A stretch of DNA of 64,000 nt from Hyphomicrobiales bacterium. GTDB taxonomy: Bacteria; Pseudomonadota; Alphaproteobacteria; Rhizobiales; CAJQND01. This document shows positions 9,226 through 30,910 of this stretch, in pieces. The notes beneath the pieces are model-generated. The model saw only the letters and a list, made by a program, of their open reading frames with translations, made no database searches and was not told where the DNA came from. Every line of letters begins with the position of its first letter. The stretch's first letter is position 1. Where the stretch lies: assembly GCA_965204985.1 (NCBI GenBank), contig CBDBFP010000003.1, positions 316,027 through 380,026 of the forward strand. Reading direction: 5' to 3'. A program made the translations under genes and the position numbers.

Positions 9226-9226
9226 T

Positions 9227-10156: not shown

Positions 10157-10160
10157 GGTT

Positions 10161-10934
10161 CTAGAGCCTCATTTGTTGAACTTGAGCGGAGAGACCGCCA
10201 TCAATAACCCAAAGCTGGCCGGAGGCATAGCGCGCTTCATCCGACGCGAGCCAGTTGACCAGATTGGCGATGTCATCAGGTTTGCCGTAGGTGCCCAGCG
10301 GATGCACGTCGCGAATGGCCTGCTGTAGTGATTCGATGTTGCCGCCTTCACCACCCGATCCCTCGCCTCCGAAGAAGCTTTGGAGCATCGGCGTGTCCAC
10401 ATAACCGGGGCAAATCGCGTTGACGCGGATACCTTCCGGACCGTGGTCGCAGGCCATGGCCTTTGTGAGTGCATGCACCGCACCCTTGGTCGCACAATAG
10501 GCGGCCAGGCCCGGATCGGCGATGAAACCGTCATAAGAGCCGAAATTGATGATGCTGGCGCCTTCAGCCTTCCGCATCAAAGGAAGTGCATGCTTGGACG
10601 TTAGAAACGTACCGGTAACATTGATGGCAAATATCTTGTTCCACTGCTCAAGCGTCGTGTTTTCGATCGTCTCTTCAATTTCGATCCCGGCGGCGTTGAC
10701 CAGGATATCAAGCTTGCCCCAGTGCTTGCCAATGCGTTCCATGCCGTCTTTGGCAGTCTCTTCAGACGTGACGTCATAAGACACAACATGGACACCTTCC
10801 TGCGGGTCTTCCCATGTCGCCAGATCAGCAGCGATAACCTTTGCCCCTTCCTTTACGAAGCGGGTACAGATGGCCTGACCAATTCCGCCCGCACCGCCAG
10901 TGACGAACGCGTGTTTTCCTTCAAGCATGGGCAT
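10161..10934 (-). CDS. SDR family oxidoreductase
   Basis: TGGAGGIGQA, NAAG, and YCATKGAV motifs. Confidence 0.8.
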   Translation of the reverse strand: MPMLEGKHAFVTGGAGGIGQAICTRFVKEGAKVIAADLATWEDPQEGVHVVSYDVTSEETAKDGMERIGKHWGKLDILVNAAGIEIEETIENTTLEQWNKIFAINVTGTFLTSKHALPLMRKAEGASIINFGSYDGFIADPGLAAYCATKGAVHALTKAMACDHGPEGIRVNAICPGYVDTPMLQSFFGGEGSGGEGGNIESLQQAIRDVHPLGTYGKPDDIANLVNWLASDEARYASGQLWVIDGGLSAQVQQMRL

Positions 10935-10953
10935 AGGACGCTCCTCTCTCGCA

Positions 10954-11039
10954 CGTCATTCCCGCGCAGGCGGGAGTCCAGGACAGAATCACTGCGCTCT
11001 TTCGATGGGATCCGGGTGCCCGCCTCCGCGGGCATGACG
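10954..11039. repeat. 86-bp MITE/REP-like intergenic element with ~21-nt terminal inverted repeats
   Basis: The left end is cgtcattcccgcgcaggcggg. The right end is cccgcctccgcgggcatgacg, which is the reverse complement with 2 mismatches. Each arm also contains its own small GC hairpin. Confidence 0.5.
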
Positions 11040-11057
11040 ACGGAACAAGAGGCACAC

Positions 11058-12200
11058 TCATTCCGCCACCGCCTGTTTGTAAGCATCGAGCACCAAACCA
11101 TGGAAATGGTGCACGGCATGTTCTGATTTTCCGGAGCCGTCCGGATCGTGGACAATCCGGCCCTGCTCGAATGCGGGCGTTTCCATGCCCCGTTGAACGC
11201 TTTCCACCAGACCTATGTCTTCCACTTGCAACACTTCGTCGAGATACCGGATCGCTTCAATTTCCGCTTCGTCGGGATCCGGTGTTTCGAGGAAAAAGTC
11301 GTAAGTCTCCAATGTTCTGTTTGGCCCGACAGGAATTATGTTGAGGACAATCATCGAGCTGCGGCCCGGATAACGCATCAGACAAGTGGTCGGCCAAAGC
11401 CACCAGACGGCATGGGTGCGGACCTTGGCATTGGAGACATCGTAGGCGGTGTTGGCTCCCTTCCCCGCATCCGCCATATGGCTGGAATAGATGCCGTGGG
11501 TGGTCACCTTGTACGTGTCCATATCGACCAGCGAACAAAAGTCCTTGTGCGCCACCGGGCAGTGATAGCACTCCAGAAAATTATCGACCACGTTCTTCCA
11601 GTTCGACTTGATGTCGTAGGTCAGACGGTGGCCGAAAGTGAGCTGATCGATATCCAGTGCCCAGTGCCGGATCTCCATGCCAAGGTCGCCACTCACTTCG
11701 GCAAGAGGTGCCGCAGCCGGATCGAGATTGACGAAGATGAACCCGCAAAACTCTTCCACCTGCACCTGATCAAGGCAGACCTCTTTCACCGAGAAACCTG
11801 CCAGGTTTTCCGTCTCCGGCGCGCGGCGAAGTTGGCCGGTGAGATCATACGTCCAGGCATGATAAGGGCACATGATCTTGTTTGCGGTGCCTTCTCCCTG
11901 CAGTAGCTCGTGCGCTCGGTGCTTGCACACGTTGTAGAAGGCACGGAGCGGACCCTCCGGGTCGCGGACGATGCAGATTGGATGACCGGCAATGTCGATA
12001 GTGAGATAGGCGCCAGGCTTGCGGAGCTTCTCGGCATGGCAAACCCACTGCCATGTCTTCCGGAAGATAGCAGCACGCTCGATTTCGGCCCATCTCGGAT
12101 CTGTGTAGGCATCCGCCTTGAGTGAGAATGAGCTGTCAGGGCTTTCCGAATAGCCGCCACTGATACGGCTGAACTCTTCTGGTGAGGGTCTGATGGTCAT
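11058..12200 (-). CDS. Rieske [2Fe-2S] aromatic-ring-hydroxylating-type oxygenase alpha subunit (GbcA/quaternary-amine demethylase-like)
   Basis: Rieske motif CKHRAHEL...CPYHAWTY plus a C-terminal catalytic domain. The start was taken at MTIRPSPEEF, because the tracked ORF extends into the betC 3' end. Confidence 0.75.
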   Translation of the reverse strand: MTIRPSPEEFSRISGGYSESPDSSFSLKADAYTDPRWAEIERAAIFRKTWQWVCHAEKLRKPGAYLTIDIAGHPICIVRDPEGPLRAFYNVCKHRAHELLQGEGTANKIMCPYHAWTYDLTGQLRRAPETENLAGFSVKEVCLDQVQVEEFCGFIFVNLDPAAAPLAEVSGDLGMEIRHWALDIDQLTFGHRLTYDIKSNWKNVVDNFLECYHCPVAHKDFCSLVDMDTYKVTTHGIYSSHMADAGKGANTAYDVSNAKVRTHAVWWLWPTTCLMRYPGRSSMIVLNIIPVGPNRTLETYDFFLETPDPDEAEIEAIRYLDEVLQVEDIGLVESVQRGMETPAFEQGRIVHDPDGSGKSEHAVHHFHGLVLDAYKQAVAE

Positions 12201-12211
12201 GACTTTGTCCT

Positions 12212-13723
12212 TCAGATTTTGGGCGGTGGGTATTGCATCCGGTGCACGACGTCGTCCCAGGAGACATGATTGCGCACAAACTCTTTGGAGGCATCGCGTG
12301 GCGGGTTGTAATCCCATGAAGTCAGGAGCCCTGCTTCCATAGCCTGATGCACCGCCCGCCGTTGTTTCTGGGTGGCGATGATATCGACCGCAATTTTTTC
12401 AGAATCCCAGCGCTCCCGGACTTCAGCATCGAAAGCAGCCACCAGCTCCGCACGGGCTGGATCGTCTGCCAGAGTGTGCCGTTCCTCCGGATCAGCTTCG
12501 ATATCGAAGAGTTGGGCTGGATCATGGTCGCAATGGATGTATTTCCACTTGCCGCGGCGGATCATGAACAACGGTGCAGCGGGAAGGATCTCGGCACAGT
12601 ACGCACCGATAGCTTCGGTCTGGCTTTCCTTGCCTTCTGCCAATGTCGGCCAGAGAGACACCCCATCAACCGGCATGCCGAATTCATCATCGCATCCGGC
12701 AATATCAGTGAAGGTCGGCAGAATGTCAACCAGCGAACACGGTTCCGCACGTTCCTGCGCGAGCACCCCAGGACCAGCCGCGATCAAGGGCACTCGCCCG
12801 GAATGCTCGAAGAAGTTCATTTTGTACCAGAGACCGCGCTCACCCAGCATATCGCCATGGTCGGCGGTGACAAAAACGATCGTGTTGTCGAGTTGATCGG
12901 ACTCTTCCAGCGCCTGCACCACAGCACCGACTTTGGAGTCGAAATAGCTGACGTTCGCATAATAGGCATGACGCGCGTTGCGGATTTCCTCATCCGTGAC
13001 CGCCTCGGGATACGCTTCAATACCAGCCATAAGCCTTTGAGTATGAGGGTCGGTTGCGTCTGTCATGGACGGCATGTCGATAGCGTCGTGGTCGTAAAGA
13101 TCCCACCATTCTTTCCGCGCCACATAGGGGTCGTGCGGGTGGATAAAGCTGACGACCATGCAGAAGGGATCGATCTTCTCCATGGCGTATTCAAAGATCC
13201 GTCTCCGTGCAAAGAAGGCGGTTTCCTCATCATATTCGATCTGGAAAGTGGTCCCGGCAACTCCGGCCGTCCGGACGGGATCCATATTATGATAAAAATG
13301 ATCGATCCGCTCGTCCGGCAATTCCCAATCCGGCGTCCAGGCATGATCGGCCGGGTAGATATCGGTCGTTAGCCGTTCCTCAAAACCATGCAACTGGTCC
13401 GGCCCAACAAAGTGCATCTTGCCGGAAAGGCATGTGCGGTAGCCCTTGCGGCGCAGGTAATGGGCGAATGTCGGGATTGCAGCTGGAAACTCCGACGCGT
13501 TGTCATAAGCCGCTATGTTCGTCACCAGCTTGCCGGACATGAAACTGAAGCGGGACGGCGCGCAGAGCGGCGAGTTGCAATAGGCCGCATCAAAACGAGT
13601 GCCTCGAGCTGCCAGTGCATCCATGTACGGTGTCTTCACAAGCGGATGGTCATAAGTGCCAGTGAACTGCGGCGCCAATTGGTCGGCCATAATCAAAACA
13701 ATGTTAGGGGCAGAGCGGGACAT
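12212..13723 (-). CDS. betC: Choline-sulfatase
   Basis: N-terminus PNIVLIMADQL and the sulfatase active-site motif CAPSRFSFMSGK. Length and overall sequence fit BetC. Confidence 0.75.
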   Translation of the reverse strand: MSRSAPNIVLIMADQLAPQFTGTYDHPLVKTPYMDALAARGTRFDAAYCNSPLCAPSRFSFMSGKLVTNIAAYDNASEFPAAIPTFAHYLRRKGYRTCLSGKMHFVGPDQLHGFEERLTTDIYPADHAWTPDWELPDERIDHFYHNMDPVRTAGVAGTTFQIEYDEETAFFARRRIFEYAMEKIDPFCMVVSFIHPHDPYVARKEWWDLYDHDAIDMPSMTDATDPHTQRLMAGIEAYPEAVTDEEIRNARHAYYANVSYFDSKVGAVVQALEESDQLDNTIVFVTADHGDMLGERGLWYKMNFFEHSGRVPLIAAGPGVLAQERAEPCSLVDILPTFTDIAGCDDEFGMPVDGVSLWPTLAEGKESQTEAIGAYCAEILPAAPLFMIRRGKWKYIHCDHDPAQLFDIEADPEERHTLADDPARAELVAAFDAEVRERWDSEKIAVDIIATQKQRRAVHQAMEAGLLTSWDYNPPRDASKEFVRNHVSWDDVVHRMQYPPPKI

Positions 13724-13818
13724 TTCAGACAAACCTTTCACTCACAGTTGATTTTAGGAGCACTCACAGCTTTAGTGCTGACATTTTTCGCCATCAACCA
13801 TGCGAAATTCGGCACAAT

Positions 13819-14841
13819 ATGAGTAAAATGCGCCAGCAAGAGACTTTCAGCATCTGCACAATTGGTATGCTGCTGCTGCCCGGTTTCAACAGCCTAGCCG
13901 CAAACGCATTTGTCGATCCGTTCCGGGTGGCAAACTATCTCTACGGTCAGACCATCTTTCATTGGCCCTGGCTATCCCTTGAAGGTGGCCATGTTGATGC
14001 CAGCAATGGGCTGAGCGCCAGCAAAACAGCGCCATTCCTGGAGCAAATCGATTCGTTGGATTTTATCGTGGTAAATGCCAGCTGGGCGCCAGAGACTTTT
14101 CAACAGCCTCAACTACAGAACTGGTTGAGGCGTCAGACCCAGCGTGGCACCGTTCTGTGTGGACTGGACACAGGCGCCTTTGTACTCGCATACGCAGGAC
14201 TGCTGGATGGATACAGAGCAGCAGTCCACTATGAACATATCGCGGCTTTCCGGGAGCTCTTCCCTGACTGCGGAATGGGTGAGGCGCTGTTCGTCTTTGA
14301 TCGCGACCGACTGACAGGCTGCGGCGGGCTTGCCGCAGCGGATATGGCACTGGAGATCATCCGGCTGCAACAAGGGCTGGAGCTGGCCAACGCAGCTTCA
14401 CGATACATTTTCCACGAGCGCTTAAGGCCCGGAGATGAAGGCCAGCTGCCCTCAAACCGTGAGCCGGTTGGCTATGCGGCGCCTGCAAAACTGCGGGAGG
14501 CAATCCTGATCATGGAACGCAACCTGGAACAACCAGTGCGCATTTCAGAGATATCCAGAGAGCTTGCATTATCTCAACGCCAACTTGAGCGGCTCTTCCA
14601 CACTCACGCGGGTGTAGCACCTATAAGGTATTACGTAGATGTGCGTCTGGATCGCGCGCGAGGCCTGGTCACACAGACAGAATTACCTATTCTTGATGTG
14701 GCGATCGCATGCGGTTTTGGCACGCCTGTGCAGTTTTCAAGGTCCTACAAATCCAGATTCGGTATTACCCCTAGCCAGGACCGAATAGCTGGGCGAGTTC
14801 CTTTTCAATTTCGTTCATTTCCGAGCCATGCAGGGGTCTAA
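13819..14841 (+). CDS. GlxA-family AraC-type regulator (DJ-1/PfpI-like domain plus HTH), GbdR/CdhR-like
   Basis: An N-terminal GATase1-like domain and a C-terminal AraC HTH (LSQRQLERLF, FGTPVQFSRSYKSRFGITPSQ). The gene is divergent from betC. Confidence 0.75.
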   Translation: MSKMRQQETFSICTIGMLLLPGFNSLAANAFVDPFRVANYLYGQTIFHWPWLSLEGGHVDASNGLSASKTAPFLEQIDSLDFIVVNASWAPETFQQPQLQNWLRRQTQRGTVLCGLDTGAFVLAYAGLLDGYRAAVHYEHIAAFRELFPDCGMGEALFVFDRDRLTGCGGLAAADMALEIIRLQQGLELANAASRYIFHERLRPGDEGQLPSNREPVGYAAPAKLREAILIMERNLEQPVRISEISRELALSQRQLERLFHTHAGVAPIRYYVDVRLDRARGLVTQTELPILDVAIACGFGTPVQFSRSYKSRFGITPSQDRIAGRVPFQFRSFPSHAGV

Positions 14842-14998
14842 AAAGCAAGAACATTCCGGTCCACAAAGCATGTGAGTCTAAAGTCTAATAATCTTTTTGA
14901 GCATTGCCTGAAGAACACAGGAAGGCTAGCAAAACCTTGGACGTTGCCGGAATAGCCGGGAACGATGTCCGTTATCAATCCGCATTGGGAGGAATCGC

Positions 14999-16342
14999 AT
15001 GAGCGATCACAAAAATCTTTCACGGCGCAAACTCTTGAAGAGCAGTGCCGCTGCTGCAACGGCTGTTGCAGCAACCCCATACTTCTTTACGCGCTATGCG
15101 CTTGCCGACAACCACGGTTACCGCAATGCCCCGAAGGGTGACACGGTTACGCTGGGCTTCAACGTACCTCAAACCGGCGCCTACGCTGACGAGGGTGCAG
15201 ACGAACTTCGCGCTTACAAGCTTGCTGTTGAACACATCAACGCTGGCGGCGGCGGCATGCTCGAAACCTTTTCCTCCAAAGCCCTTACAGGCGGTGTGAA
15301 CGGCAAGAAGGTTGTATTCGTGACCGGCGACACACAGACCAAGTCTGACGCTGCACGTGCATCGGCCAAGCGCATGATCGAAAACGACGGCGCTGTGATG
15401 ATCACTGGTGGATCGTCTTCCGGTGTGGCTATCGCTGTACAGAGCCTCTGCCAGGAAGCTGGCGTGATCTTCATGGCTGGTCTGACACACTCCAACGACA
15501 CCACGGGTAAAGACAAGCGTGCAAACGGCTTCCGTCACTTCTTCAACACGGAAATGACCGGTGCTGCTCTTGGCCCAGTGCTCAAGAACGCATTTGGTTC
15601 CGAGCGCCGCGCTTACCACCTGACAGCTGACTACACCTGGGGCTGGTCGCAGGAAGGTTCGATCAAGAAGTATACTGAGCAGCTCGGATGGCAGACCGCC
15701 GCAGCTGTGCGCACGCCTCTCGGCGCTGGTGACTTCTCCCAGTACATCACTCCGGTTCTGAACTCCGGTGCTGACGTTCTGGTACTGAACCACTACGGCA
15801 AGGACATGGTCAACTCCCTGACCCAGGCCGTTCAGTTCGGTCTTCGTGACAAGCAGGTCAACGGCAAAGACTTCGCCATCGTTGTTCCGCTTTACTCGCG
15901 TCTGATGGCACAGGGTGCTGGCAAGAACGTTAAAGGCATCTTCGGTTCTACAAACTGGCACTGGTCACTGCCTGACGCAGGCTCAAAGGCCTTCGTGAAG
16001 TCGTTCGGTGAGAAGTATGGCTTCCCGCCATCCCAGGCTGCGCACACCACATACTGCCAGGCCATCCTGTACGCAGACGCCTGCCAGCGCGCAGGTACGT
16101 TCAAGCCAAGCGAAGTCGGCAAAGCCCTGGAAGGCTTCAAGTTCGACGGTCTCGGCAATGGCCCGACAGAATATCGCGCAGACGACCATCAGTGCTTCAA
16201 GGACGTTCTTGTTGTGAAGGGTAAAGAGAACCCATCCTCCAAGTTCGACGTTCTGGAAGTTGTGGAAGTCACACCTCGTGCGAAGGTTGAGTATCCTGCC
16301 AACCTGCTGGGCGGCGAACTCGGCCCATACAACAACGGCTAG
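14999..16342 (+). CDS. ABC transporter substrate-binding protein (LIV/amide family) with a Tat-type signal
   Basis: SRRKLLKSSAAAATAVAA twin-arginine-like leader. It is followed by LivHMGF-type genes. Confidence 0.8.
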   Translation: MSDHKNLSRRKLLKSSAAAATAVAATPYFFTRYALADNHGYRNAPKGDTVTLGFNVPQTGAYADEGADELRAYKLAVEHINAGGGGMLETFSSKALTGGVNGKKVVFVTGDTQTKSDAARASAKRMIENDGAVMITGGSSSGVAIAVQSLCQEAGVIFMAGLTHSNDTTGKDKRANGFRHFFNTEMTGAALGPVLKNAFGSERRAYHLTADYTWGWSQEGSIKKYTEQLGWQTAAAVRTPLGAGDFSQYITPVLNSGADVLVLNHYGKDMVNSLTQAVQFGLRDKQVNGKDFAIVVPLYSRLMAQGAGKNVKGIFGSTNWHWSLPDAGSKAFVKSFGEKYGFPPSQAAHTTYCQAILYADACQRAGTFKPSEVGKALEGFKFDGLGNGPTEYRADDHQCFKDVLVVKGKENPSSKFDVLEVVEVTPRAKVEYPANLLGGELGPYNNG

Positions 16343-21209: not shown

Positions 21210-21268
21210 CGAAACCTCGCTTGCTGCGAGAAATGACTCGTGCATCTGAACGGAAGTTTTGACACGTT

Positions 21269-21782
21269 TTATGCTTTCAGTGGTTTTTCCTGATAGGTCC
21301 ATGTGAAGGGCTTTGCTATTGTCTCATTGAAGGGAGCGATGGAGGTCGTGATTCTGGAGTTGAGATCCCTGATTGAGGTGAAGTTTCCACGGCGGATGGC
21401 CTTTCTAACCAGGATTGAGAACCAGATCTCAGTCTGGTTCATCCAGGAAACGTGCCCTGGGGTGAAGTGGAATGTGATGCGGCGGGTTTTACAGCTCAGG
21501 AAGGCGCGCCGACTTCCCATGGTCTTCAGGATGCCGCGTTTGCGTCTCTTATCCAGACCCAGGCCGGAGCCGCAGCGGCGGACGATCAGGTGGACTACGC
21601 TCTCGGGGACATGGATGTTGAGATTGTCGGCCATGATGCGCCATCTGGTTGTCGGGCGGTTGACTTGCGAACGGGCTGTCGAGGAAGGCGGTGAAGTCCT
21701 CTTCGGGGCGCCGCCGTTATCGTCCCGCTGGCCACATCAAAAGCGGCGATTAGGGTCTGGGTGCCGTGGCGGATATATTCAT
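21269..21782 (-). pseudogene. IS630-family transposase, 3' portion (frameshifted)
   Basis: EYIRHGTQTLIAAFDVASG and ADNLNIHV...HFTPGHVSWMNQTEIWFS are IS630/DDE_3 motifs. The two pieces are in different frames. Confidence 0.8.
21777..21782. repeat. Target-site duplication ATTCAT (left copy)
   Basis: The same hexamer occurs at 30169-30174, immediately outside the inserted block. Confidence 0.7.
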
Positions 21783-21932
21783 CCCGCATTTCCCAGGCAG
21801 TTTGCCGATCTTGCTTCGCGTGTGCTACTTTTCATGTTATATTTCAGCGTGTTATTTGGAGCTGGGCGGGTTCTGAGGGCGATTTTCGGTTGGGATTTGA
21901 CCGGCGTGTTCGGCTTGAGTTCCACGGCCCCC
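21783..21932 (+). mobile_element. IS1380-family left-end fragment (copy A, ~150 bp, truncated by low-GC cassette 1)
   Basis: Near-identical to 24698-~24870, which continues into an IS1380 transposase frame. Confidence 0.65.
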
Positions 21933-23005
21933 CTGAACGGCCCCGGCCTCTTGACCTGCCCTCTTGATTTTCAGGGCTTTTTGTCCCAGCCTGTATTACA
22001 GCTCCAGAGGGCTATGAAACCGGGAAGCAGGATATGGAAAACGCCATGAGAACAGTTGCTAAAAAAATCATAGCGCTATTGGGCGTGAGTCTGATTGTCT
22101 TTTCCAGTCTTGGGACAGGTTCCAGTTTTGGGGAAAGATATAGATCTGGTAAGTTAGGATGCGGTGATTTTGAGGATACCGAAAGACAGTATAAAGAACA
22201 ACTCCATGATCCTGATCCTTATGTGAGTGTGACCCTGGTTTATGCTCTTTGTCTTTTATTAAAGGGTGAGGTGACTAAAAATCAGGATGATGTGTCCAAG
22301 GGGATGTTGATTTTACATGGTTTGGCTGATCAACACAGCAATATTGTAGCTAATTATTGGATAGCAGAATACCATGTTTCAGGAGGGAGTTTCAACCAAA
22401 ATGTAGCTGACAAGAATTTGGATTTGGCCGCCAAGTATTATTCAAGAACACTGGCTATCATCAAGACTTATAACAGCTACCCTCCTCTTATTTACAGTAT
22501 GTGGGAGGAAACTGATAATATAGAGGACAGCTTATTATAATTTACCTCTTGTTTATTTAGAAATGTTTTATAACGGGGTTGCTGGTGACTACCGGGTTAG
22601 GTTGCTTAACTCTCCCAGTTATAAAGGAGATCGTGATTTGAAAACTTATCCTGAATACAGAGATAATATTATGGGTTATATTGATTTAGCGATAGAGCAT
22701 GCGGGGAATTGTAAAAATCTTCCTCTCAAGAGGCATTTCAATAAGCATTCTTCTTATTACATAAAGGTTTGTGCCATGTATGAGGAGAAAGCCAGGCTTT
22801 TAAAAGAAGCTTATGTGAAAAGTCAGTTTATTTTAAATCAGGACAGGTGTAAGGATATAGGATCCGATGAAACAGTTTTTGCCTATTGCCCTGAACATGA
22901 TGAGACAGAACACAAAATTATAGATACTTATAACTCTATATTTAAAGAAACTAAGAAAATACTTTACCCCATTCGTGACCTTCTTGTATCATCTCCTAAT
23001 AATTA
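21933..23005 (+). repeat. Low-GC cassette, direct copy 1 (starts CTGAACGGCCCCGGCC, ends CTCCTAATAATTA)
   Basis: It aligns along its length with 23632-24695. Confidence 0.8.
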
Positions 23006-23006
23006 G
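22034..23006 (+). pseudogene. Sel1/TPR-like repeat protein with an N-terminal signal or anchor, copy 1 (frameshifted near 22525)
   Basis: ORFs 22034-22540 and 22563-23006 together match the single ORF of copy 2. There is a 2-bp deletion relative to copy 2 (gaggacagcttattataa versus gagatgatatcttattataat). Confidence 0.7.
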
Positions 23007-23519
23007 GATCTATAAAAACCCTCTTTTTTCAGCATAGAGTAAATGCCTCGTACAGGACGCACCGCTCTCCGGTCCCGGTCTTCCCGGACCCCTGCTTGCG
23101 AGGTCGGCGCGCGGGACCGAAAGGGTAAAACCGTTCTGCCTTGGTTGTCCCGGTTCCGGGCCCTGATCGCCGGCGCCGCAGCCCTTGTTGAGCTTGTCCC
23201 TGGTTTCCCTGCAGTTGCTGGCGCTTGATGGACGATCATACTCTGCTGCTGACAGCTTGATGTCATTGGCTGGGCCCAGAGAAATCGTTCATGAACAGAT
23301 GTTCATGAACCTCCCTGATTCAATTGCAGAGCTTGCGGTCATGTAAGAAATTTCAAGTTTCCTTGCACGTAATAACAGTCACCTATGCGGAATATGGACC
23401 TGAATTCAGAAATATGAACGGCACATACGGTTGTCAGTGTTCGTTCACGGAGGCCCTGTCACAGTGCTGCGTCATCGTCAATCAGAATGGCGAACGAAAA
23501 GCAGAAAGGAGATCTAATC

Positions 23520-23631
23520 ATGAAAAAGTCCCGTCGAATAGCCGCTGCTGCGGCAGTATCCCTGACTTTACTGACGAGTGCCTCGGCTCCGGCTTCTGCT
23601 GTCCTCCCGTCGGACCTCCAGCGTCCTGCTT
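23520..23631 (+). pseudogene. 5' stub of a secreted-protein gene, truncated by cassette copy 2
   Basis: An aaggag RBS 9 nt upstream of the ATG, followed by MKKSRRIAAAAAVSLTLLTSASAPASA (a signal peptide with an AxA site). The frame runs straight into the cassette boundary. Confidence 0.45.
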
Positions 23632-24695
23632 CTGAACGGCCCCGGCCCCTCGGCCCGCCCTCTTGCAGGGCTTTTTGTCCCAGCCTGTATTACAGCTCCA
23701 GAGGGCTATGAAACCGGGAAGCAGGATATGGAAGACGCCATGAGAACAGTTGCTAAAAAAATCATAGCGCTATTGGGCGTGAGTCTGATTGTCTTTTCCA
23801 GTCTTGGGACAGGTTCCAGTTTTGGGGAAAGATATAGATCTGGTAAATTTGGATGTGATTTTGAGGAAGAAGAAAAAGCTTATATGGAACAACTCCATGA
23901 TCCTGATCCTTATGTGAGTGTGACCTTAGTTTATGCTATTTGTCTTTTATTAAAGGGTGAGGTGACTAAAAATCAAGATGATGTGTCCAAGGGGATGTTG
24001 ATTTTACATGGTTTGGCTGATCAACACAGCAATATTGTAGCTAATTATTGGATAGCAGAATACCATCTTTCAGGAGGAGATTTCAAAAGTATAGCTGACA
24101 AGAATTTGGATTTAGCCGCCATGTATTATTCAAGAACACTGGCTATCATCAAGACTTATAATAGCTACCCTCCTCTTATTTACAGTATATGGGAGGAAAC
24201 TGATAATATAGAGATGATATCTTATTATAATTTACCTCTTGCTTATTTAGAAATGTTTTATAACGGGGTTGCTGGTGACTACCGGGTTAGGTTGCTTAAC
24301 TCTCCCAGTTATAAAGGAGATCGTGACTTAAAAACTTATCCTGAATACAGAGATAATATTATGGGTTATATTGATTTAGCGATAGAGCATGCGGGGAATT
24401 GTAAAAATCTTCCTCTTAAGAGACATTTCCGGAAGTCTTCTGATTCTTATTACATAAAGGTTTGTGCTATGTATGAGGAGAAAGCTAAGCTTTTAAAAGA
24501 AGCTTATGTGAAAAGCAGTTTATTTTAAATCAGGACAGGTGTAAGGATATAGGATCCGATGAGACAGTTTTTGCCTATTGTCCTGAAATTGATGAGGCAG
24601 AATTGAAAATTGTCAATACTTATTACTCTATATTTAAAGAAGTTAAGGAAATACTTTACCCTATTCGTGACCCTTGTATCATCTCCTAATAATTA
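23632..24695 (+). repeat. Low-GC cassette, direct copy 2
   Basis: Same ends and content as 21933-23005. Confidence 0.8.
23728..24693 (+). pseudogene. Sel1/TPR-like repeat protein, copy 2 (frameshifted near 24517 and again near 24670)
   Basis: Intact through the position where copy 1 is broken. There is a 1-bp deletion relative to copy 1 (aaaagcagttta versus aaaagtcagttta). The C-terminal ~55 codons remain recognisable out of frame. Confidence 0.7.
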
Positions 24696-24697
24696 AG

Positions 24698-25740
24698 CCC
24701 GCATTTCCCAGGCAGTTTGCTGATCTTGCTTCGCGTGTGCTACTTTTCATGTTATATTTCAGCGTGTTATTGGGCGCTGGGCGGGTTTCATGGCACACTC
24801 AAAGGGGGCAGGTTCTGAGGGCGGTTTTCGGTTGGGATTTGACCGGCGTTTCGGCTTGAGTTCCACGGCTCCAGGATCGGCTCCGATGGCGGCCTGCTGC
24901 CCTTTCGGGAGGTGGACGAGGTGTTGGGGCTGCACGATCTGGCAGGCCACTCACTGCAGGACACGCGGCGTGGCAAGAAGGGCAGTCACACGCTTGTCGG
25001 TCTTCTGCGGCAGTCTGCCTTTGGGCGGCTTGCCGGATATCCAGACGTCAATGACGCCGGGCGTCTCGCGCGTGATCCTGTCATGCGCCAGATCGTGGGC
25101 GGTCGCGCGGTCGATGGATTGACAGGAGGCATGACGCGCCCCCACGGCGATCGGGAAGGCACGGCCTGGAACGGTCACTTCGGGTGCAAATGCCATCATC
25201 CCCTCTTTGTGTTCAACCAGTCTGGCGATCTTGAGCGCTGCGCCCTGCGCAAGGGCAATGTCCACAGCGCCGATGGCTGGAAGGAGGTTCTGGCCTCTGT
25301 CATCGCCCGATACAAGGGGCGCGACCTGATGCGGTTCTTTCGGGCCGATGCCGCCTTTGCCCTCCCGGAGCTTTACGAGATGCTGGAAGCGGAAGGTTAT
25401 TTCCACACCATCCGCCTGAAGGGCAACAATGTGCTTCAGGAGATCGCCGACTGGTCCCTGACCAGCATTCAAAGTCGCCGTGTCAAAATTGGCGCGCGTG
25501 GTGTGCGTCATGCCCGTGCCATCCCCTTCCAACTGGCCGGGGTTGCGGTGCCCCGCAACATCTTCGGAAAAATCCTGGCCGCCATCCGCCCCCTCAAACC
25601 ACCGCCGAGGCCCGCCTGACGGGCAACATGTGCGAAGCTGAGCAAAAGCGGCTCGATACCTGTGTTATGCGGACGGCAAAAAGCCCGGACTCGGCGGAAA
25701 GCCGTGGCGCCCCGAACCCTGCGTTCGCCTGGGTGTCGTG
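24698..25740 (+). mobile_element. IS1380-family element, copy B, with a defective transposase; the right boundary is approximate
   Basis: The left end is identical in type to 21783. The transposase C-terminus ILAAIRPLKPPPRPA ends at 25619. The right inverted repeat is not clearly recognisable. Confidence 0.65.
24790..25619 (+). pseudogene. IS1380-family transposase with an N-terminal frameshift and a large internal deletion
   Basis: Motifs seen: RLEFHGSRIGSDGGLLPFREVDEVLGL, RQSAFGRLAGYPDVNDAGRLARDPVMRQIVG, and HPLFVFNQSGDLERCALRKGNVHSADGW. About 275 codons in total, against the ~450 I recall for the family. The junction is at VLQEIAD/WSLTS. Confidence 0.75.
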
Positions 25741-26913
25741 TCGCCCTTCTGCGACAACCAGACATTGTCGATGCTCGCTGATCTCACCAGCGCCAAAAAA
25801 CCACCGATATTCATCGGACGCTCCGACGAACTTGCGCCGGTGCCAAGCTCCACGCTCGACGGCTTCGGTCGCGTGGCTGTGCTCGACGAAATGGCGACCA
25901 CAGAAGACGGAGAAGAGGCCGATGCGATCGCATTGCAGGGGCTTCATGCCAAGGCTTTCATCGCCGAGCGCGGTTGGGACACCGCAATCACGGTCGGCTC
26001 CGGAAACGCCACGCGACCCGCCCTCGACGGAAGCAATGTCGAGATATTTGCGACCCTGACCGGCAAGCGATCGCGAGTCGGCAGTGTTGAGGAAATTCTC
26101 GGCGACAAGGGCTTCGGCCGGTTGACACGACCATTCGTCCGCGACGAGCTGAGTGATGAGCTGCTTAGTGCCAATGCTGCCCGACGACAGGCAGAGAGGC
26201 GATTGGACCTGGCCCGGCGCGAGATTTGCCGCAGCAACCTCCGGCTCCGTTGCGAACGCACGGAGCCTGCCGATGACGGCACGCCGACCTGGCGGGTCTT
26301 TTTGGTCCCGTCCGGGCCGCTCTCCCTTGCCGGGGTCGGCCGCCTGCGTGTTTGGCCGATCACGCGGGGCGCTGGTCATGAGCGCAACGCGCTCGGTCCA
26401 CTCCGGCTAGGACAGTGCGCCGACCTGGGAGCAATGCCGCTGGTCGACCTTACGCGCTTCCTTGCCTTTCACCTCACAGACCAGGAAAAGGAGGATGTCT
26501 CCCTCCTGTTCAGCACCGGGCTCGTTATGGATGGACTGCCCTCCGAGGAGCGTCGCGCCGCGATCCTGCGCTGGGTGATCGACAGCAAGGATACCTTCTT
26601 CCGGTATCTCCGGCTGCTTCTCTCCGAGCCGGGGGATCCGTTTGCCGCCGCGCTGGCCGCCCAGGATGGACAAGGTCATGGCGCATGGCGCACTGCAAGC
26701 GACGACTCGCCCATCCTTGAGGAAATGGTCCGCGCCTTCTGCCGAGGCGGCGATCAGGATCAGCTCCGCGCCATCGAACGGCTGATCGCACGTCTGAAGA
26801 GTGGAGACGACGATCGCACCGATCCGATTCCGGACGAGTTCCGCTCTCTCTGGGAGACATTTCGGATTGCGCGCGACGCGCAGCCCGCGCAGGATGCCTC
26901 CCATGCCGACTGA
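25738..26913 (+). CDS. PLD-family (single HKD) nuclease-like protein with a ~260-aa uncharacterised C-terminal region; probably 5'-truncated
   Basis: HKD motif LHAKAFIAE...GSGNAT at nt 25945-26006. There is no ATG or SD at the 5' end; the tracked start is a GTG directly abutting IS1380 sequence. The stop overlaps the helicase start. Confidence 0.65.
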   Translation: MSPFCDNQTLSMLADLTSAKKPPIFIGRSDELAPVPSSTLDGFGRVAVLDEMATTEDGEEADAIALQGLHAKAFIAERGWDTAITVGSGNATRPALDGSNVEIFATLTGKRSRVGSVEEILGDKGFGRLTRPFVRDELSDELLSANAARRQAERRLDLARREICRSNLRLRCERTEPADDGTPTWRVFLVPSGPLSLAGVGRLRVWPITRGAGHERNALGPLRLGQCADLGAMPLVDLTRFLAFHLTDQEKEDVSLLFSTGLVMDGLPSEERRAAILRWVIDSKDTFFRYLRLLLSEPGDPFAAALAAQDGQGHGAWRTASDDSPILEEMVRAFCRGGDQDQLRAIERLIARLKSGDDDRTDPIPDEFRSLWETFRIARDAQPAQDASHAD

Positions 26914-29900
26914 ACGGTTCCGCGCCGAAACGGCACTCGCTCCCCTCAAGGTCTTTCAGCGGCGCACCGTCGATTATGTCTTCGACCGGCTCTATTGCCC
27001 GAACGACCCTGTCCGCCAGTTCCTGGTCGCTGACGAAGCCGGTCTTGGCAAGACGATGGTGGCGCGCGGGGTCATTGCCCGCATGATCGAACATCTTTGG
27101 GACAGCACGAAACGCATCGACATCCTCTATATCTGCTCGAACCAAGCGATCGCGGCCCAGAACCTCAACCGACTGAACGTCCTCGGCCGCCGCGAGCTGG
27201 CCCGGCCAACCCGAATGACCCTCATTCCGCTGCAACTGGAAGGCCTCGACGCCAACAAGGTGAACTTCATCAGCTTGACGCCGGGCACGACCTTCAATTT
27301 GAGCTCCGCGACCGGGGTGGTGCAGGAACGCGCCCTCCTGTTCCATCTCCTGCAAGACCTCGTTCCCCGGCCCCGTGGACTGCGCAACCTGTTGCAGGTC
27401 AATGTCGGCATCGACGGCTGGAACCGCGCCGTGGACAACCTAGCTGTCGACGGCGTTGACAAGCACATCATCGAGCGCTTTCGCCGCGACGTGCAGGAGA
27501 ATCGAAATCTCTTCGAGGAACTTGAGAGTGTCTGTGACCTCTTCCCGCGCCGTCGTGACAGCTATCCCCCGGACAGGACGCAGCGCCGCAATAGCCTGAT
27601 CGATCGACTGCGCGCCAAGCTGTCCCACGCCTGCGTGGACGCGCTACAGCCGGATCTGATCATCATGGATGAGTTTCAGCGGTTTCGGGACTTGCTGCAC
27701 GGTGGAAGCGACGCTGCGATCCTCGCGCGCGAACTGTTCGACTACTCCGGGACCGAGGGGCACTCGGCCCGCACCCTGCTGCTATCCGCGACCCCCTACC
27801 GGATGCTCACGCTCCGCGGCGATGAACCCGACGAAGACGATCACTATGAAGATTTCCTCAAGACATTGCGTTTTCTCTACGGAGAGAAAGGGCCGGAGGT
27901 GGCGCACACGCTGACCAGAGAAATGCGGGCCTTCCGCGACCATTTGCGTCGTCTCCCGCAATCGCAATCGTATGATCTGGCAGTTGCGGCGCGTGAGACC
28001 ATCGAACAGCGGCTGCGCAGGGTGATGGCACGAACCGAACGCGTCGCGTCCACGATTGAACGCGACTCCATGATGGACGAACCGACCATACCTGTTTCGG
28101 TCGCGCCCGCTGACCTCACGCAGGCATCCGCCGTTTCGCAAGTGGCGCACAGGCTCAATGCCCCGGAGATCATCGAATACTGGAAATCCTCGCCCTACCT
28201 GCTCAACTTCATGCATCACTACAAACTGAAGCAACTGCTGCGGGCGCAGATCGACGTTCCTTCTGCGCCGCTCCCGCTCCGCAATGCAATCCGAGCGGCA
28301 CGATCAGCTATGCTCGATCGCGATGCGATCGACGGCTACGAGCCGCTGGAGCCCCCGAACGGCCGCATGCGGGCGATCATTGACGACATATTCGATCGGC
28401 GTCTCGAACAGAATCTCTGGATACCCGCCGCCATGCCCTATTATGGCGCTGCGCGATCCGATCCTCCGCTGACAAAGGCGCTAATATTCTCTTCCTGGTC
28501 CATGGTTCCCGATGCGATCGCTGCCCTTCTGTCCTACGAAGCAGAACGGCGCATGGGGGTCGGAGAATCCGGCCGACCTTATTCCGAGCAGCATCATCAC
28601 TTGAGACCCTTGCAGTTCCGGCGGAATCAGGGACGGCTCGCCGGCCTTCGCGCGCTTTTGCTAATTTATCCATCACCGTCTCTGGCGGAACTGGCGGATC
28701 CGCTCGCGGTCTTCGCCGAGACCAAGACGACGTTGTCGCAGAAAGCCATGCGTTTAGCGATCGGCAAGCGGCTCAAGCCCCACCTCGAAGCGCTGCAACG
28801 CGCCGCAACTCCACGGAAGGACGCGGGCAGCGCCGAATGGGCCGCACCCGCCATGATCGACGATATGCGAGACACACGCTCCCGCGCATGGCTACTAGGG
28901 GAGTCTGACGGAATGGGCGCCTTGGCAAGCGAAGATGCTTTCCAGGCCCATGTCGCCAAATTGGCGACGACAGCGGCGAACCGCGACATTGACGCCTCAA
29001 CTGCCAATCTTTCCGAACTCCTCGTCGATGTGGCGCTAGGCAGCCCGGCGGTTTGTGCGCTTCGCGCTCTCAAAAGGATCGCGCCTGAGTTGGAATGGGA
29101 TGACTGCCGCTTGCTGAGCGCCGCTGCCCGGGTCGCATGGTCCTTCCGGACCTTGTTCAACCAGCATGATGCGGTTGCACTGCTCCGCCGGGGTGCCGAC
29201 GATCGCTACTGGCATCGCGTGCTGACCTATTGCGCGGACCACAATCTCCAGGCGGTCCTTGACGAATACGCCCATTATCTTGTCGAGGCCGAAGGCCTAG
29301 GGGTTCGTCCGGCAGGGGAACGTGCGGTTGGCGTGGGAAAGGCGATGGCTTCGGCCCTGGCCATCCTCCCGTCGCAGATCGAGGTTGACGACGTGCAGGT
29401 CGATGGTGAATCGCTCGCGATCCGCAAATTTCGTATGCGTGGGCGCTTCGCGATGCGGCTCGCCGACTACAGGGACGAGGAAGGCGCAGTCGCCCGTCTC
29501 GGGGTGGTGCGGGATGCGTTCAACTCACCGTTCCGGCCTTTCGTTCTCGCGACGACGTCCGTTGGTCAAGAAGGGCTCGACTTCCATCCCTATTGTTACC
29601 ACGTCTACCACTGGAACCTTCCGAGTAACCCAGTGGACCTGGAGCAACGCGAGGGCCGCGTCCATCGGTTCAAGGGCCACGCGATACGCCTCAATCTGGC
29701 GGAACGCCAAGCCGGCGTCGTCCGGGGCCGTGGTCAGTCACCCGACGATCCGTGGAAACTGATGTTCGAACAGGCACGATCGGAGGCGGCGGTCGACAAC
29801 GATCACAACGATCTTATCCCCTATTGGATCTACGAGGGTTCTGTCCGGGTTGAACGGCGTGTACCGATGCTGCCTTTCAGTCGGGAAATTACACGACTCG

Positions 29901-30073
29901 CTTGGCTCAAGCGCAGCCTCACGGTCTATCGCCTAGCCTTCGGCCAGCAGCGGCAGGACGATCTGCTGGATTACCTGCAATCCCTCGTCGGCACAGGCAT
30001 GGACACCTCCAGGCTCGACAAGCTGCAAATTAGTCTCGAACCACCGGAACTTCCCGACGAGTCAGAACGATAG
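26894..30073 (+). CDS. SNF2/DrmD-like superfamily-2 helicase (~1059 aa)
   Basis: Motif I ADEAGLGKT (27041-27055), II DEFQ (27668-27679), III SATP (27785-27796), VI QREGRVHR (29645-29668). The start is ATG 26894 or 26903. Confidence 0.8.
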   Translation: MPPMPTERFRAETALAPLKVFQRRTVDYVFDRLYCPNDPVRQFLVADEAGLGKTMVARGVIARMIEHLWDSTKRIDILYICSNQAIAAQNLNRLNVLGRRELARPTRMTLIPLQLEGLDANKVNFISLTPGTTFNLSSATGVVQERALLFHLLQDLVPRPRGLRNLLQVNVGIDGWNRAVDNLAVDGVDKHIIERFRRDVQENRNLFEELESVCDLFPRRRDSYPPDRTQRRNSLIDRLRAKLSHACVDALQPDLIIMDEFQRFRDLLHGGSDAAILARELFDYSGTEGHSARTLLLSATPYRMLTLRGDEPDEDDHYEDFLKTLRFLYGEKGPEVAHTLTREMRAFRDHLRRLPQSQSYDLAVAARETIEQRLRRVMARTERVASTIERDSMMDEPTIPVSVAPADLTQASAVSQVAHRLNAPEIIEYWKSSPYLLNFMHHYKLKQLLRAQIDVPSAPLPLRNAIRAARSAMLDRDAIDGYEPLEPPNGRMRAIIDDIFDRRLEQNLWIPAAMPYYGAARSDPPLTKALIFSSWSMVPDAIAALLSYEAERRMGVGESGRPYSEQHHHLRPLQFRRNQGRLAGLRALLLIYPSPSLAELADPLAVFAETKTTLSQKAMRLAIGKRLKPHLEALQRAATPRKDAGSAEWAAPAMIDDMRDTRSRAWLLGESDGMGALASEDAFQAHVAKLATTAANRDIDASTANLSELLVDVALGSPAVCALRALKRIAPELEWDDCRLLSAAARVAWSFRTLFNQHDAVALLRRGADDRYWHRVLTYCADHNLQAVLDEYAHYLVEAEGLGVRPAGERAVGVGKAMASALAILPSQIEVDDVQVDGESLAIRKFRMRGRFAMRLADYRDEEGAVARLGVVRDAFNSPFRPFVLATTSVGQEGLDFHPYCYHVYHWNLPSNPVDLEQREGRVHRFKGHAIRLNLAERQAGVVRGRGQSPDDPWKLMFEQARSEAAVDNDHNDLIPYWIYEGSVRVERRVPMLPFSREITRLAWLKRSLTVYRLAFGQQRQDDLLDYLQSLVGTGMDTSRLDKLQISLEPPELPDESER

Positions 30074-30168
30074 ATATACCCAACCTGGCCGCGCTGCAGC
30101 GTGCGGGGAACCTGGCAGGCACTGCAGTGGCTCCCATAGCCCTATTCGTTTCAACGCGAGAATCAGGA

Positions 30169-30174
30169 ATTCAT
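30169..30174. repeat. Target-site duplication ATTCAT (right copy)
   Basis: Identical hexamer to 21777-21782. Confidence 0.7.
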
Positions 30175-30639
30175 ACTCCCTGCAGGCAACCCGTCCCGGT
30201 GCCGGAGGCAGATCGGGCATTGCACGCTCAAGGGCCCGGATAGCCCCATCTCATCAATCCTGAGGGTGCGGATGCCGACCTCGGCGAAGCCTGGGTCTCG
30301 TCATAGACCCGGACGACATCGGCACATTTGTCAGCAAACAGCGGCTCTGGCTTGGCAGTCAGCCAGAACCGGAAGCGGTGGAGCTTAAGGCTGGATTCTT
30401 TTCAAAAAACGCTCTACCGAGCGCTGCGAAACTTCATCCACAATGCCACGTCTCTCCGCCTCATCAGCCAGGTCCTGCCGGCTTCAGAGGCTGACCGGCA
30501 GGCCTCTCGCGGACGGCTGCTCACAAGCCAGCGCCGCCCGCTCACCGTCTTGCGCCACACCCCGGGCTTCGCCGGCGTAACCGCCCAAGTTCAGATCGTT
30601 CTTCAGAGGACAAAAATGCGACCAGGTCGACGGCCATAA
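30169..30639 (-). pseudogene. IS630-family transposase, 5' portion (multiple frameshifts)
   Basis: Minus-strand translation in shifting frames gives MAVDLVAFLSSEERSELGRLRR, VDEVSQRSVERFLKRIQ, LKLHRFRFWLTAKPEPLFADKCADVVRVYDE, and AIRALERAMPDLPPAPGRVACREYE. Confidence 0.75.
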
Positions 30640-30910
30640 AATCCTCCTGTGATCAGCGAATCAGACCACAGAAAATCAAAAATCCATCAAATCCTCAAAC
30701 AAAATCAAAGAGTCACAACTTCCGTTCAGGTGCACTAGGGCATTGAATAACTGCGCCCTTGCGAGTTGTAGCCCGCTGTCCTAGTCTACGGTATCTGAAT
30801 GGGCCGGATCTTTGATATTTTGCAACAGTAACAACCTGTGGGCAAAAATTTCTGGCTGCATAAGATTGGCGTGGCATTAAGCGCACATTTGCTTCATTGG
30901 AGGACATTTA

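What the first reader, a model, noticed from the sequence alone, without database searches (positions are those of the whole stretch)
21783..30168. IS1380-family left end used with a weak surrogate right end (ISEcp1-style one-ended mobilisation of the PLD-helicase genes); duplicated left end and deleted transposase
Seen in the sequence:
- The ~150-bp sequence starting cccgcatttcccaggcagtttgc occurs twice in direct orientation, at 21783 and 24698.
- Only copy B continues into an IS1380-type transposase (GSDGGLLPFREVDE..., HPLFVFNQSGDLERCALRKGNVHSADGW, ...ILAAIRPLKPPPRPA).
- That gene has an N-terminal frame break. It also jumps from VLQEIAD directly to WSLTS, so roughly 200 codons that I recall being present in the family are missing.
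- The ATTCAT duplication brackets copy A's left end and a point 95 bp after the helicase stop.
- The terminal bases there (reverse complement tcctgattctcgc) resemble the left end (cccgcatttccca) at only about half the positions.

Established knowledge: the IS1380-family member ISEcp1 moves adjacent genes by pairing its IRL with poorly matching downstream sequences, and gives short (5-bp) duplications.

Inference: the helicase-nuclease pair was captured downstream of an IS1380 copy and transposed as one unit. The present transposase is dead, so the unit is now fixed. The duplication seen here is 6 bp rather than 5.
Basis: partly seen in the sequence, partly recalled or inferred. Interest (0 to 1): 0.7.

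Follow-up and report, generated by a model that had tools for sequence, protein, structure and literature searches.

The report
IS1380-end-bounded module inside a broken IS630
An 8.4-kb block of decayed DNA (a solo IS1380-type end, two pseudogenes, a dead IS copy and the remains of an Azaca phage-defence operon) sits as one insertion inside an old IS630 element, most likely moved by the known one-ended transposition of IS1380-family elements; it is an ordinary, now inert, example.

Summary
The sequence observations hold. The IS1380-type left end occurs twice (21783, 24698). Copy B runs into a frame-broken, internally deleted transposase. ATTCAT flanks 21783-30168.

That block interrupts an IS630-type pseudogene. 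Removing it and one ATTCAT restores a transposase motif colinear with an intact IS630 transposase.

The capture story is only partly right. A 97-98% identical metagenome contig (L008) shows the earlier state: gene X | TTAAG | the same dead IS with a good IRR | TTAAG | zacA-zacB-zacC. So copy B was a simple insertion with a 5-bp duplication. The "PLD" gene (zacB) was truncated later by a 1983-bp deletion, which also removed the IRR and zacA.

The outer left terminus is copy A, a 147-bp solo end derived from a different IS copy. The right terminus matches the IR consensus no better than chance (top 4% of window positions). The duplication can be read as the family's usual 5 bp (TTCAT).

Best explanation (about 0.6): an ISEcp1/ISPme1/IS1247-style transposable module, using IRL-A plus an arbitrary right end, with transposase from a lost or distant copy. 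It is a new member of a known kind and of low interest.

The parts
21237..21782 (-). IS630-type element, 3' half: C-terminal part of the transposase (ORF 21269-21634) and the terminal IR at 21237-21268
   Evidence: Pfam DDE_3. The IR pairs with 30707-30738 (I1). Colinear with an intact IS630 transposase.
21777..21782 (.). Target duplication, left copy: ATTCAT (the real duplication may be the 5-bp TTCAT, 21778-21782)
   Evidence: (D6).
21783..21929 (+). Copy A: solo 147-bp left-end fragment of an IS1380-family element. The IRL is CCCGCATTTCCCAGGCAG.... It has a 27-nt deletion that removes the tnp start codon, but not the frameshift of copy B
   Evidence: IRL consensus with L005-L009 and L014.
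21930..23006 (+). X1: low-GC (about 35-40%) member of a lineage-specific gene family. It is a pseudogene, split into ORFs 22034-22540 and 22563-23006
   Evidence: (D1-D5, D7).
23007..23631 (.). Unique spacer U between the two X copies
   Evidence: no other copy in the window or in the fetched loci.
23632..24697 (+). X2: second X paralogue (89-98% identical to X1 block by block), frameshifted near its 3' end. It ends in ...TAATAATTAAG, the same junction with the IS as in contig L008
24698..25689 (+). Copy B: dead IS1380-family element. It has the IRL, a transposase with a 1-nt frameshift and three internal deletions (stop at 25619), and 70 nt of 3' untranslated sequence. Its last 128 bp, including the IRR, are deleted
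25686..25689 (.). Junction of the 1983-bp deletion (CGGA microhomology). The deletion removed the IS 3' end with its IRR, the TTAAG repeat, zacA, and codons 1-221 of zacB
   Evidence: contig L008 shows the undeleted state.
25690..26913 (+). zacB' : 5'-truncated PLD-type nuclease gene of an Azaca (ZacABC) defence system. It matches the ZacB profile from position 233 of 586
   Evidence: PADLOC ZacB, 2.5e-81; full-length 618-aa homologues.
26903..30073 (+). zacC: full-length helicase gene of Azaca (1056 aa)
   Evidence: ZacC, 1130 bits, profile positions 4-1016 of 1019.
30074..30168 (.). 95-nt tail after zacC. Its last bases (...GCGAGAATCAGGA) form the right terminus of the inserted module. It is not an IS end
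30169..30174 (.). Target duplication, right copy: ATTCAT
30175..30738 (-). IS630-type element, 5' half: N-terminal part of the transposase (several frameshifts and stops) and the terminal IR at 30707-30738
   Evidence: (I1).

Best explanation
**What it is.** The block 21783-30168/9 is a transposable module of the ISEcp1 / ISPme1 / IS1247 kind.

**Proposed mechanism (inferred).**
- An IS1380-family transposase paired the left inverted repeat of copy A with an arbitrary, non-IR sequence 95 nt past zacC.
- It then inserted everything in between into an AT-rich pentamer (TTCAT) of a resident IS630 element.
- This made the family's usual 5-bp duplication. The sixth matching base is read as a coincidence.

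**What the cargo was.** It was not a freshly captured gene pair. It was a pre-existing mosaic: X1 - spacer - X2 - [already dead IS copy B, a simple insertion] - Azaca operon.

**Source of transposase (inferred).** The enzyme must have come from copy A before most of it was deleted, or in trans from another copy.

**Current state (shown).** A separate 1983-bp microhomology deletion removed the IRR of copy B, zacA and the 5' third of zacB. Nothing in the module is functional now:
- there is no intact transposase;
- both X genes are pseudogenes;
- Azaca lacks ZacA and the ZacB N-terminus.

**Shown versus inferred.** The insertion, its exact boundaries, the duplication, the ancestral X|IS|zacABC arrangement and the deletion are shown. 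Use of a surrogate right end by the transposase, and the order of the events, are inferred.
For: - **Single insertion with a duplication.** The two IS630 halves, joined with one ATTCAT, restore an uninterrupted conserved transposase motif.
- **Left boundary.** It coincides to the base with the IRL outer end, defined by eight copies in different flanks: G/T | CCC(G/A)CATT....
- **Duplication length.**
  - Simple insertions of this clade give 5-bp duplications: TTAAG in L008 and CTCGT for ISKpn23 in L006.
  - IS1247 is listed with a DR of 5 (PMC3281130 Table 2).
  - ISEcp1 units have 5-bp DRs, TATAA and TATTA (PMC9429958).
- **Orientation.** The cargo lies on the IRR side of the IRL, as in ISEcp1 units.
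- **Family relationship and precedent.**
  - The closest named relatives are ISKpn23 and IS1247, at 52-58% amino-acid identity.
  - Modules made of one IS1380-family copy plus adjacent DNA of various lengths are documented for ISPme1 and IS1247a (PMC3281130; PMC4133298).
- **Action in trans is plausible in this lineage.** Copies with the same frameshift and the same 97-nt deletion sit at three different sites: window/L008, L009 and L014.
- **Copy A comes from a different copy.** It lacks that frameshift, so its parent may have been active.
Against: - **Right terminus.** It scores only in the top 4% of window positions against an IR matrix, so it gives no positive evidence of recognition.
- **Better site unused.** A much better IRR-like site inside zacC (27915-27930, 14/16) was not used (I19, 43).
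- **IRR of copy B.** If it was still present at the time, it was also skipped.
- **No IS copy at the terminus.** Only a 147-bp fragment sits there, so either a later deletion or a trans-acting enzyme must be assumed.
- **No corroborating sequences found**:
  - no intact copy of this IS;
  - no second copy of the module;
  - no donor locus spanning position 30168.
- **Duplication length.** As seen, it is 6 bp, not 5.
Confidence: 0.6

Rival explanations
1. Two-step origin. A complete IS1380 copy (A) first inserted normally into IS630, making TTCAT. Later its body and IRR were replaced by X1...zacC through illegitimate recombination or deletion-insertion.
For: - Copy A is clearly a remnant of a separate IS copy.
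- Microhomology deletions do occur in this region.
- The 5-bp duplication fits an ordinary IS insertion.
Against: - The right breakpoint of the replacement would have to fall exactly at the IRR/duplication boundary, leaving the duplicate untouched.
- No trace of an IRR remains next to 30169.
Confidence: 0.13
2. Insertion without a transposase. A linear or circular DNA fragment integrated by microhomology-mediated, illegitimate recombination at ATTCAT. The coincidence with the IRL end is accidental.
For: - The repeat is 6 bp, not the family's 5.
- The right end shows no significant IR resemblance.
- A 4-bp microhomology deletion is documented 4.5 kb away.
Against: - The left end coincides to the base with the IRL terminus seen in eight copies. 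By chance this is roughly a one-in-thousands event.
- A flanking direct duplication of the target is the signature of staggered transposase cuts.
Confidence: 0.1
3. Copy B inserted into the PLD gene, then carried the downstream PLD-helicase segment to a surrogate end. The left end was duplicated afterwards.
For: - Copy B lies directly upstream of zacB', in the right orientation.
Against: - L008 has the same IS at the same X|IS junction, with an IRR, a TTAAG duplication and an intact zacA-zacB downstream. The junction in the window is therefore a 1983-bp deletion.
- Copy A is not a copy of B.
- The outer duplication brackets copy A, not copy B.
Confidence: 0.04
4. Assembly artefact. Repeated X genes and IS ends caused a chimeric join in the source assembly.
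For: - The region contains two repeat families (X1/X2, A/B).
- Relatives are known only from metagenome assemblies.
Against: - The repeats are diverged (89-98%), not identical.
- A mis-join would not produce the outer junctions, which form a clean target duplication inside IS630.
- The X2|IS junction is reproduced independently in L008.
Confidence: 0.05

Closest known systems
ISEcp1 transposition units (IS1380 family; blaCTX-M and blaCMY-2 mobilisation)
   Same: - The IRL forms one terminus, and the cargo lies on the IRR side.
- The other terminus is a poorly matching or arbitrary sequence.
- There is a short duplication of an AT-rich target: 5 bp, TATAA/TATTA, in PMC9429958.
- Such units are often later inactivated.
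   Different: - The terminal IS is reduced to a 147-bp solo IRL.
- The only transposase gene is internal, belongs to another copy, and was already dead.
- The transposase is only distantly related to the ISEcp1 group. The nearest named relatives are ISKpn23/IS1247 at 52-58% identity.
- The cargo is pseudogenes plus a defence-system remnant, not a selected resistance gene.
- The duplication reads as 6 bp.
Transposable modules (TMos) of ISPme1 and IS1247a in Paracoccus; IS1247 mobilisation of dhlB in Xanthobacter
   Same: - The hosts are Alphaproteobacteria, and the IS belongs to the same IS1380 subgroup.
- A TMo is a single IS1380-family copy plus adjacent genomic DNA of various lengths (PMC3281130).
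- IS1247 has a DR of 5 bp and IRs of 16/13.
   Different: - Those modules were captured experimentally, with an intact IS at one end.
- Here movement is inferred from one fossil insertion, and the IS end is a fragment.
Azaca (ZacABC) anti-phage system
   Same: - zacB' and zacC match the PADLOC ZacB and ZacC profiles strongly.
- The gene order and the 11-nt overlap are the same as in the Ralstonia and metagenome operons.
   Different: - zacA is absent, and zacB lacks its first 221 codons.
- All three proteins are needed for DNA cleavage in vitro (bioRxiv 10.1101/2025.07.10.664194).
- This is therefore a remnant, not a working system.

Membership tests
IS1380 family (IS1247/ISKpn23 subgroup) | DDE transposase of the DDE_Tnp_1_4 type | tested here: met
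   - Pfam PF13701, E=3.5e-48.
- 52-58% amino-acid identity to ISKpn23/IS1247-type transposases.
- 65-68% identity to full-length 450-aa metagenome proteins.
- The gene is frame-broken and lacks about 174 codons.
IS1380 family (IS1247/ISKpn23 subgroup) | Terminal inverted repeats beginning CC(C), about 16 nt | tested here: met
   - The IRL CCCGCATTTCCCAGGCAG aligns with the IRLs of L005, L006, L007, L009 and L014, and with the IRRs of L005, L006, L008 and L009.
- The IRR of copy B itself is missing in the window.
IS1380 family (IS1247/ISKpn23 subgroup) | 4-5-bp target duplication (5 bp in this subgroup) | tested here: met
   - L008: TTAAG.
- L006: CTCGT.
- IS1247: DR 5.
- The 4-5-bp range for the whole family is from memory of ISfinder.
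ISEcp1-type transposition unit / TMo | An IS copy with a working transposase at one end of the unit | tested here: not met
   - Only a 147-bp IRL fragment is at the terminus.
- The internal copy B is dead, and was already dead when it inserted.
- The past state is not testable.
ISEcp1-type transposition unit / TMo | The outer terminus of the unit is the IRL, with the cargo on the IRR side | tested here: met
ISEcp1-type transposition unit / TMo | The other terminus is an IRR-like surrogate sequence | tested here: inconclusive
   - The IR matrix score of the terminus is in the top 4% of positions, which is chance level.
- A better site at 27915-27930 was not used.
ISEcp1-type transposition unit / TMo | The whole unit is flanked by the IS's own duplication length | tested here: inconclusive
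   ATTCAT (6 bp) is seen. It contains TTCAT (5 bp), and the extra A could belong to the unit's tail.
ISEcp1-type transposition unit / TMo | The same unit, or nested units, found in other flanks | tested here: not met
   - No other copy was found in the genome, metagenome, viral or plasmid collections, or among the protein clusters.
- The source genome outside the window could not be read.
Azaca (ZacABC) defence system | Three genes, zacA (DUF6361), zacB (PLD nuclease) and zacC (helicase), all intact | tested here: not met
   - zacA is absent.
- zacB starts at profile position 233 of 586.
- zacC is full length.
- The intact operon is present in L008, L002 and L010-L013.
IS630 family (the interrupted host element) | DDE_3 transposase between terminal IRs, about 1.1 kb | tested here: met
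   - Pfam DDE_3.
- 32-nt IRs (I1).
- The joined length is about 1.11 kb, and it is 52% identical to an intact IS630 transposase over 203 aa.
- It is a pseudogene.
- The TA target duplication was not verified.

The most novel reading that the evidence does not exclude
A 147-bp solo IRL fragment with no transposase of its own was enough to be mobilised in trans. It took 8 kb of adjacent DNA with it to an essentially random right end. This would be a non-autonomous, one-ended 'solo-IR' transposable module. In this lineage it would sit alongside defective IS1380 copies that spread to at least three sites in the same way.
Probability: 0.3. Interest if true: 0.45.

Novelty: new member of a known kind. 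Interest (0 to 1): 0.27.

Why it matters
- **Reach of one-ended mobilisation.** If the reading is right, it extends this mechanism beyond clinical resistance genes. IS1380-family elements would then also move chromosomal genes and (fragments of) phage-defence systems in an environmental alphaproteobacterial lineage.
- **Hard-to-recognise units.** After later deletions such a unit is easily missed: the driving IS is reduced to 147 bp.
- **Annotation.**
  - zacB'-zacC should not be called an Azaca system.
  - The IS-zacB' junction is a deletion scar, not a capture junction.
- **Limits.** The locus is inert and unique in the data available, so its wider significance is small.

Tried and rejected
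**Searches that found nothing useful**
- An exact 20-mer of the IRL against 185,579 representative genomes gave two hits, in a Planctomycetaceae MAG and a Pyrinomonadaceae MAG. Both lie in unrelated genes and are chance matches; about one is expected.
- Metagenome scans for the right-end 21-mer and for a degenerate 32-mer IRL found nothing.
- A viral scan for the IRL found nothing.
- Exact-protein look-ups of ZacC, the window transposase, X proteins and the two junction-spanning ORFs found nothing on record. The source contig (2.7 Mb, NCBI/ENA) could not be fetched. Consequently no intact IS copy, donor locus or second insertion could be looked for in the same genome.

**Readings considered and rejected**
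- I first read 25659-25673 (CCTGTGTTATGCGGA, 11/15 to the IRL) as the IRR of copy B.
  - I rejected this after alignment with L005, L006, L008 and L009.
  - It is a conserved internal segment, and the true IRR lies about 130 nt further on in L008 and L009.
- I considered a tandem-duplication origin of copy A from copy B.
  - I rejected it because copy A lacks the frameshift shared by all B-type copies.

**Other checks without result**
- Homology of the 95-nt tail to the sequence downstream of zacC in Niveispirillum, Ralstonia and the 83%-identical metagenome operons: none beyond the stop codon.
- The tail and the spacer U have no other copies.

Full report
**Observation**

The 23-mer CCCGCATTTCCCAGGCAGTTTGC occurs exactly twice in the 64-kb window, at 21783 and 24698 on the + strand; none is expected by chance.

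- Copy A extends for 147 bp (21783-21929). It is about 95% identical to copy B, apart from a 27-nt deletion and a 1-nt difference.
- Only copy B continues into a transposase gene of the IS1380 type (Pfam DDE_Tnp_1_4, E=3.5e-48).
- The gene is dead.
  - One G is missing relative to copy A and to outgroup ISs, which breaks the frame.
  - Three internal deletions (97 nt, 47 nt and about 370 nt) remove about 174 of about 450 codons.
- ATTCAT lies at 21777-21782 and at 30169-30174, the latter 95 nt after the helicase stop at 30073.

**Surroundings: the block sits inside an IS630**

- 21237-21782 and 30175-30738 carry 32-nt terminal inverted repeats (I1) and the two halves of an IS630/DDE_3 transposase pseudogene.
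- Joined with a single ATTCAT, the halves total about 1.11 kb and read ...PGRVACREYEYIRHGTQTLIAAFDV....
- This aligns without a gap to the intact IS630 transposase of a Brasilonema plasmid...PGKVERREFEYIRHGTQSLIANFDV..., at 52% identity over 203 aa.
- So 21783-30168 is one insertion with a target duplication, not a chance repeat.
- The IS630 itself lies in an ABC-transporter gene cluster.

**Cargo**

- The "PLD-helicase pair" is ZacB and ZacC of the Azaca (ZacABC) anti-phage system.
  - ZacC is full length: 1130 bits, profile positions 4-1016 of 1019.
  - ZacB begins only at profile position 233 of 586.
  - There is no zacA.
- Intact operons (zacA of about 390 aa with DUF6361, zacB of 618 aa, zacC of about 1050 aa) occur in a Ralstonia megaplasmid and in ICE-like metagenome contigs.
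- All three proteins are needed for DNA cleavage in vitro (bioRxiv 10.1101/2025.07.10.664194). The window therefore holds a remnant.
- Between copies A and B lie two diverged paralogues, X1 and X2, 89-98% identical block by block.
  - They are low in GC, and both are pseudogenes.
  - They belong to a lineage-specific gene family with no Pfam domain, and are separated by a unique 625-bp spacer.
  - The family has 63 homologues, several per large metagenome contig, and sits in ordinary chromosomal contexts.

**Comparative evidence that changes the story**

A protein search with the reconstructed transposase found a 98%-identical fragment on ENA contig L008 (sample ERZ25068762).

- L008 reads: X gene ...TAATAATTAAG | CCCGCATTT... 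same deleted IS ...CACTTGGGAAATATCGGG | TTAAG | zacA, full zacB, start of zacC.
- In that genome the IS is therefore a simple insertion between X and zacA, with a good IRR and a 5-bp duplication.
- The window shares the identical X2|IRL junction but lacks 1983 bp of L008.
  - The missing stretch comprises the last 128 bp of the IS with its IRR, the second TTAAG, zacA, and codons 1-221 of zacB.
  - The junction is at a CGGA microhomology, window 25686-25689.
- Hence copy B did not capture the Azaca genes, and the truncation of zacB is a later deletion.
- Two more copies of the same IS at other sites share copy B's frameshift and 97-nt deletion. These are L009, on a 130-kb contig, and L014, a JGI contig.
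  - A defective derivative has therefore reached at least three sites.
  - This implies a helper transposase acting in trans (or gene conversion).
- Copy A has the intact G, so it derives from a different, possibly functional, copy. It is not a duplication of B.

**Ends and duplication length of the family**

- Eight copies in different flanks define the left terminus as CCC(G/A)CATT(T/C)CCC...
- The IRRs are its imperfect complement.
- Duplications are 5 bp:
  - TTAAG in L008 and CTCGT for ISKpn23 in L006;
  - DR 5 for IS1247 (PMC3281130 Table 2);
  - TATAA and TATTA for ISEcp1 units (PMC9429958).
- In the window the duplication can be read as TTCAT, with the preceding A belonging either to the target or to the tail. 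A 5-bp event is therefore not excluded.

**The right terminus**

- I built a position matrix from nine IR sequences and scored every position of the window.
  - The real IRLs score 19.1.
  - The terminus at 30168 scores -3.0, which 4% of all positions equal or exceed.
  - A site inside zacC (27915-27930, CCCGCATTTCTCTGGT on the other strand) scores 13.0 and was not used (I19).
It neither supports nor refutes a surrogate end.
- The 95-nt tail has no homologue downstream of zacC in more distant relatives, and no other copy.

**Mechanism**

Three features together are best explained by an IS1380-family transposase acting on IRL-A and an arbitrary right end:

- the exact coincidence of the insertion's left edge with the IRL terminus;
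- a duplication of the family's length in an AT-rich site;
- cargo on the IRR side.

This is the behaviour documented for ISEcp1 and, in Alphaproteobacteria, for ISPme1 and IS1247a "transposable modules". The enzyme came either from copy A before it was reduced to 147 bp or from another copy in trans. The order of the deletions relative to transposition cannot be resolved. If both IRRs had already been lost, a surrogate end was the only option. I put this explanation at about 0.6.

Rivals:

- Normal insertion of copy A, followed by replacement of its body and IRR (0.13). This requires a breakpoint exactly at the duplication.
- Microhomology-mediated integration without a transposase (0.10). 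This requires the IRL coincidence to be accidental.
L008 contradicts it.
- Assembly artefact (0.05).

**Novelty and interest**

- This is a new, fossil example of a known kind of element.
- The one somewhat unusual possibility is that a solo 147-bp IRL was mobilised in trans together with 8 kb of adjacent DNA.
- Nothing in the module is functional, no second copy or donor was found, and the mechanism is established for the family. Interest is therefore low (about 0.27).

**What led nowhere**

- The only scan of representative genomes gave two chance hits.
- Metagenome and viral scans found nothing.
- Exact look-ups for the source contig and for junction ORFs failed.
- An apparent IRR at 25659-25673 proved to be a conserved internal segment.

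Noticed in passing
window 27915-27930 (inside zacC): A 16-nt sequence complementary to the IS left end at 14/16 positions, CCCGCATTTCTCTGGT on the minus strand. It is by far the best IRR-like site downstream of either IRL (matrix score 13 against 19 for the true ends). It was nevertheless not the end used. I did not check whether it is conserved in other zacC genes.
   Followed up: partly
window 24698-25689; L008 532-1659; L009 5778-7317; L014 about 1925-2707: All retrievable copies of this IS are defective. They share the same 1-nt frameshift and 97-nt deletion although they sit at three different insertion sites, so a non-autonomous derivative appears to have spread in trans. No intact copy was found anywhere.
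   Followed up: partly
window about 25137-25141 versus L008 and L014: The 47-nt deletion that removes the ...ITLDMD... segment of the transposase is shared by the window copy and L014, which is at a different site. It is absent from L008, which is at the same site as the window copy. This points to a recurrent deletion between short C-rich repeats, or to gene conversion between IS copies.
   Followed up: no
window 21930-23006 and 23632-24697; L015 8001-9008: X1 and X2 belong to a lineage-restricted, low-GC (about 35%) gene family of proteins of about 310 aa, with an N-terminal hydrophobic segment and no Pfam domain. The family is present in several copies per genome in ENA metagenome contigs (63 homologues, 30-90% identity). 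Its function is unknown. L008's X is only about 92.5% identical to either window copy, while the adjacent IS and zac genes are 97-98% identical. This suggests exchange among paralogues.
   Followed up: partly
L010-L013 (Logan contigs), about 1-15000: The closest full Azaca operons (ZacC 83% identical) lie in an ICE- or plasmid-like context. Upstream is an AddAB-like PD-(D/E)XK/UvrD pair. Downstream are another UvrD-like helicase and then ArdC and ParB genes.
   Followed up: no
L002 (Ralstonia solanacearum megaplasmid) 10320-16248: Downstream of zacABC there are two further genes, a 423-aa hypothetical overlapping the zacC stop and an ATP-binding protein. An IS5 and a SIR2-family gene follow. 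This looks like a defence island.
   Followed up: no
window 21235-21240 and 30736-30742: The IS630-type element is flanked by TC on one side and TA on the other, rather than a clean TA duplication. Its N-terminal half has several frameshifts and stops, so it is an old, decayed insertion within an ABC-transporter gene cluster.
   Followed up: no
L009 4857-12455: In the related genome the IS1380 copy sits in a dense cluster of IS fragments (DDE_Tnp_1, Transposase_mut, DDE_3, DUF4096) together with a Rep3-type replication gene. This looks like an integrated plasmid remnant or an IS graveyard.
   Followed up: no
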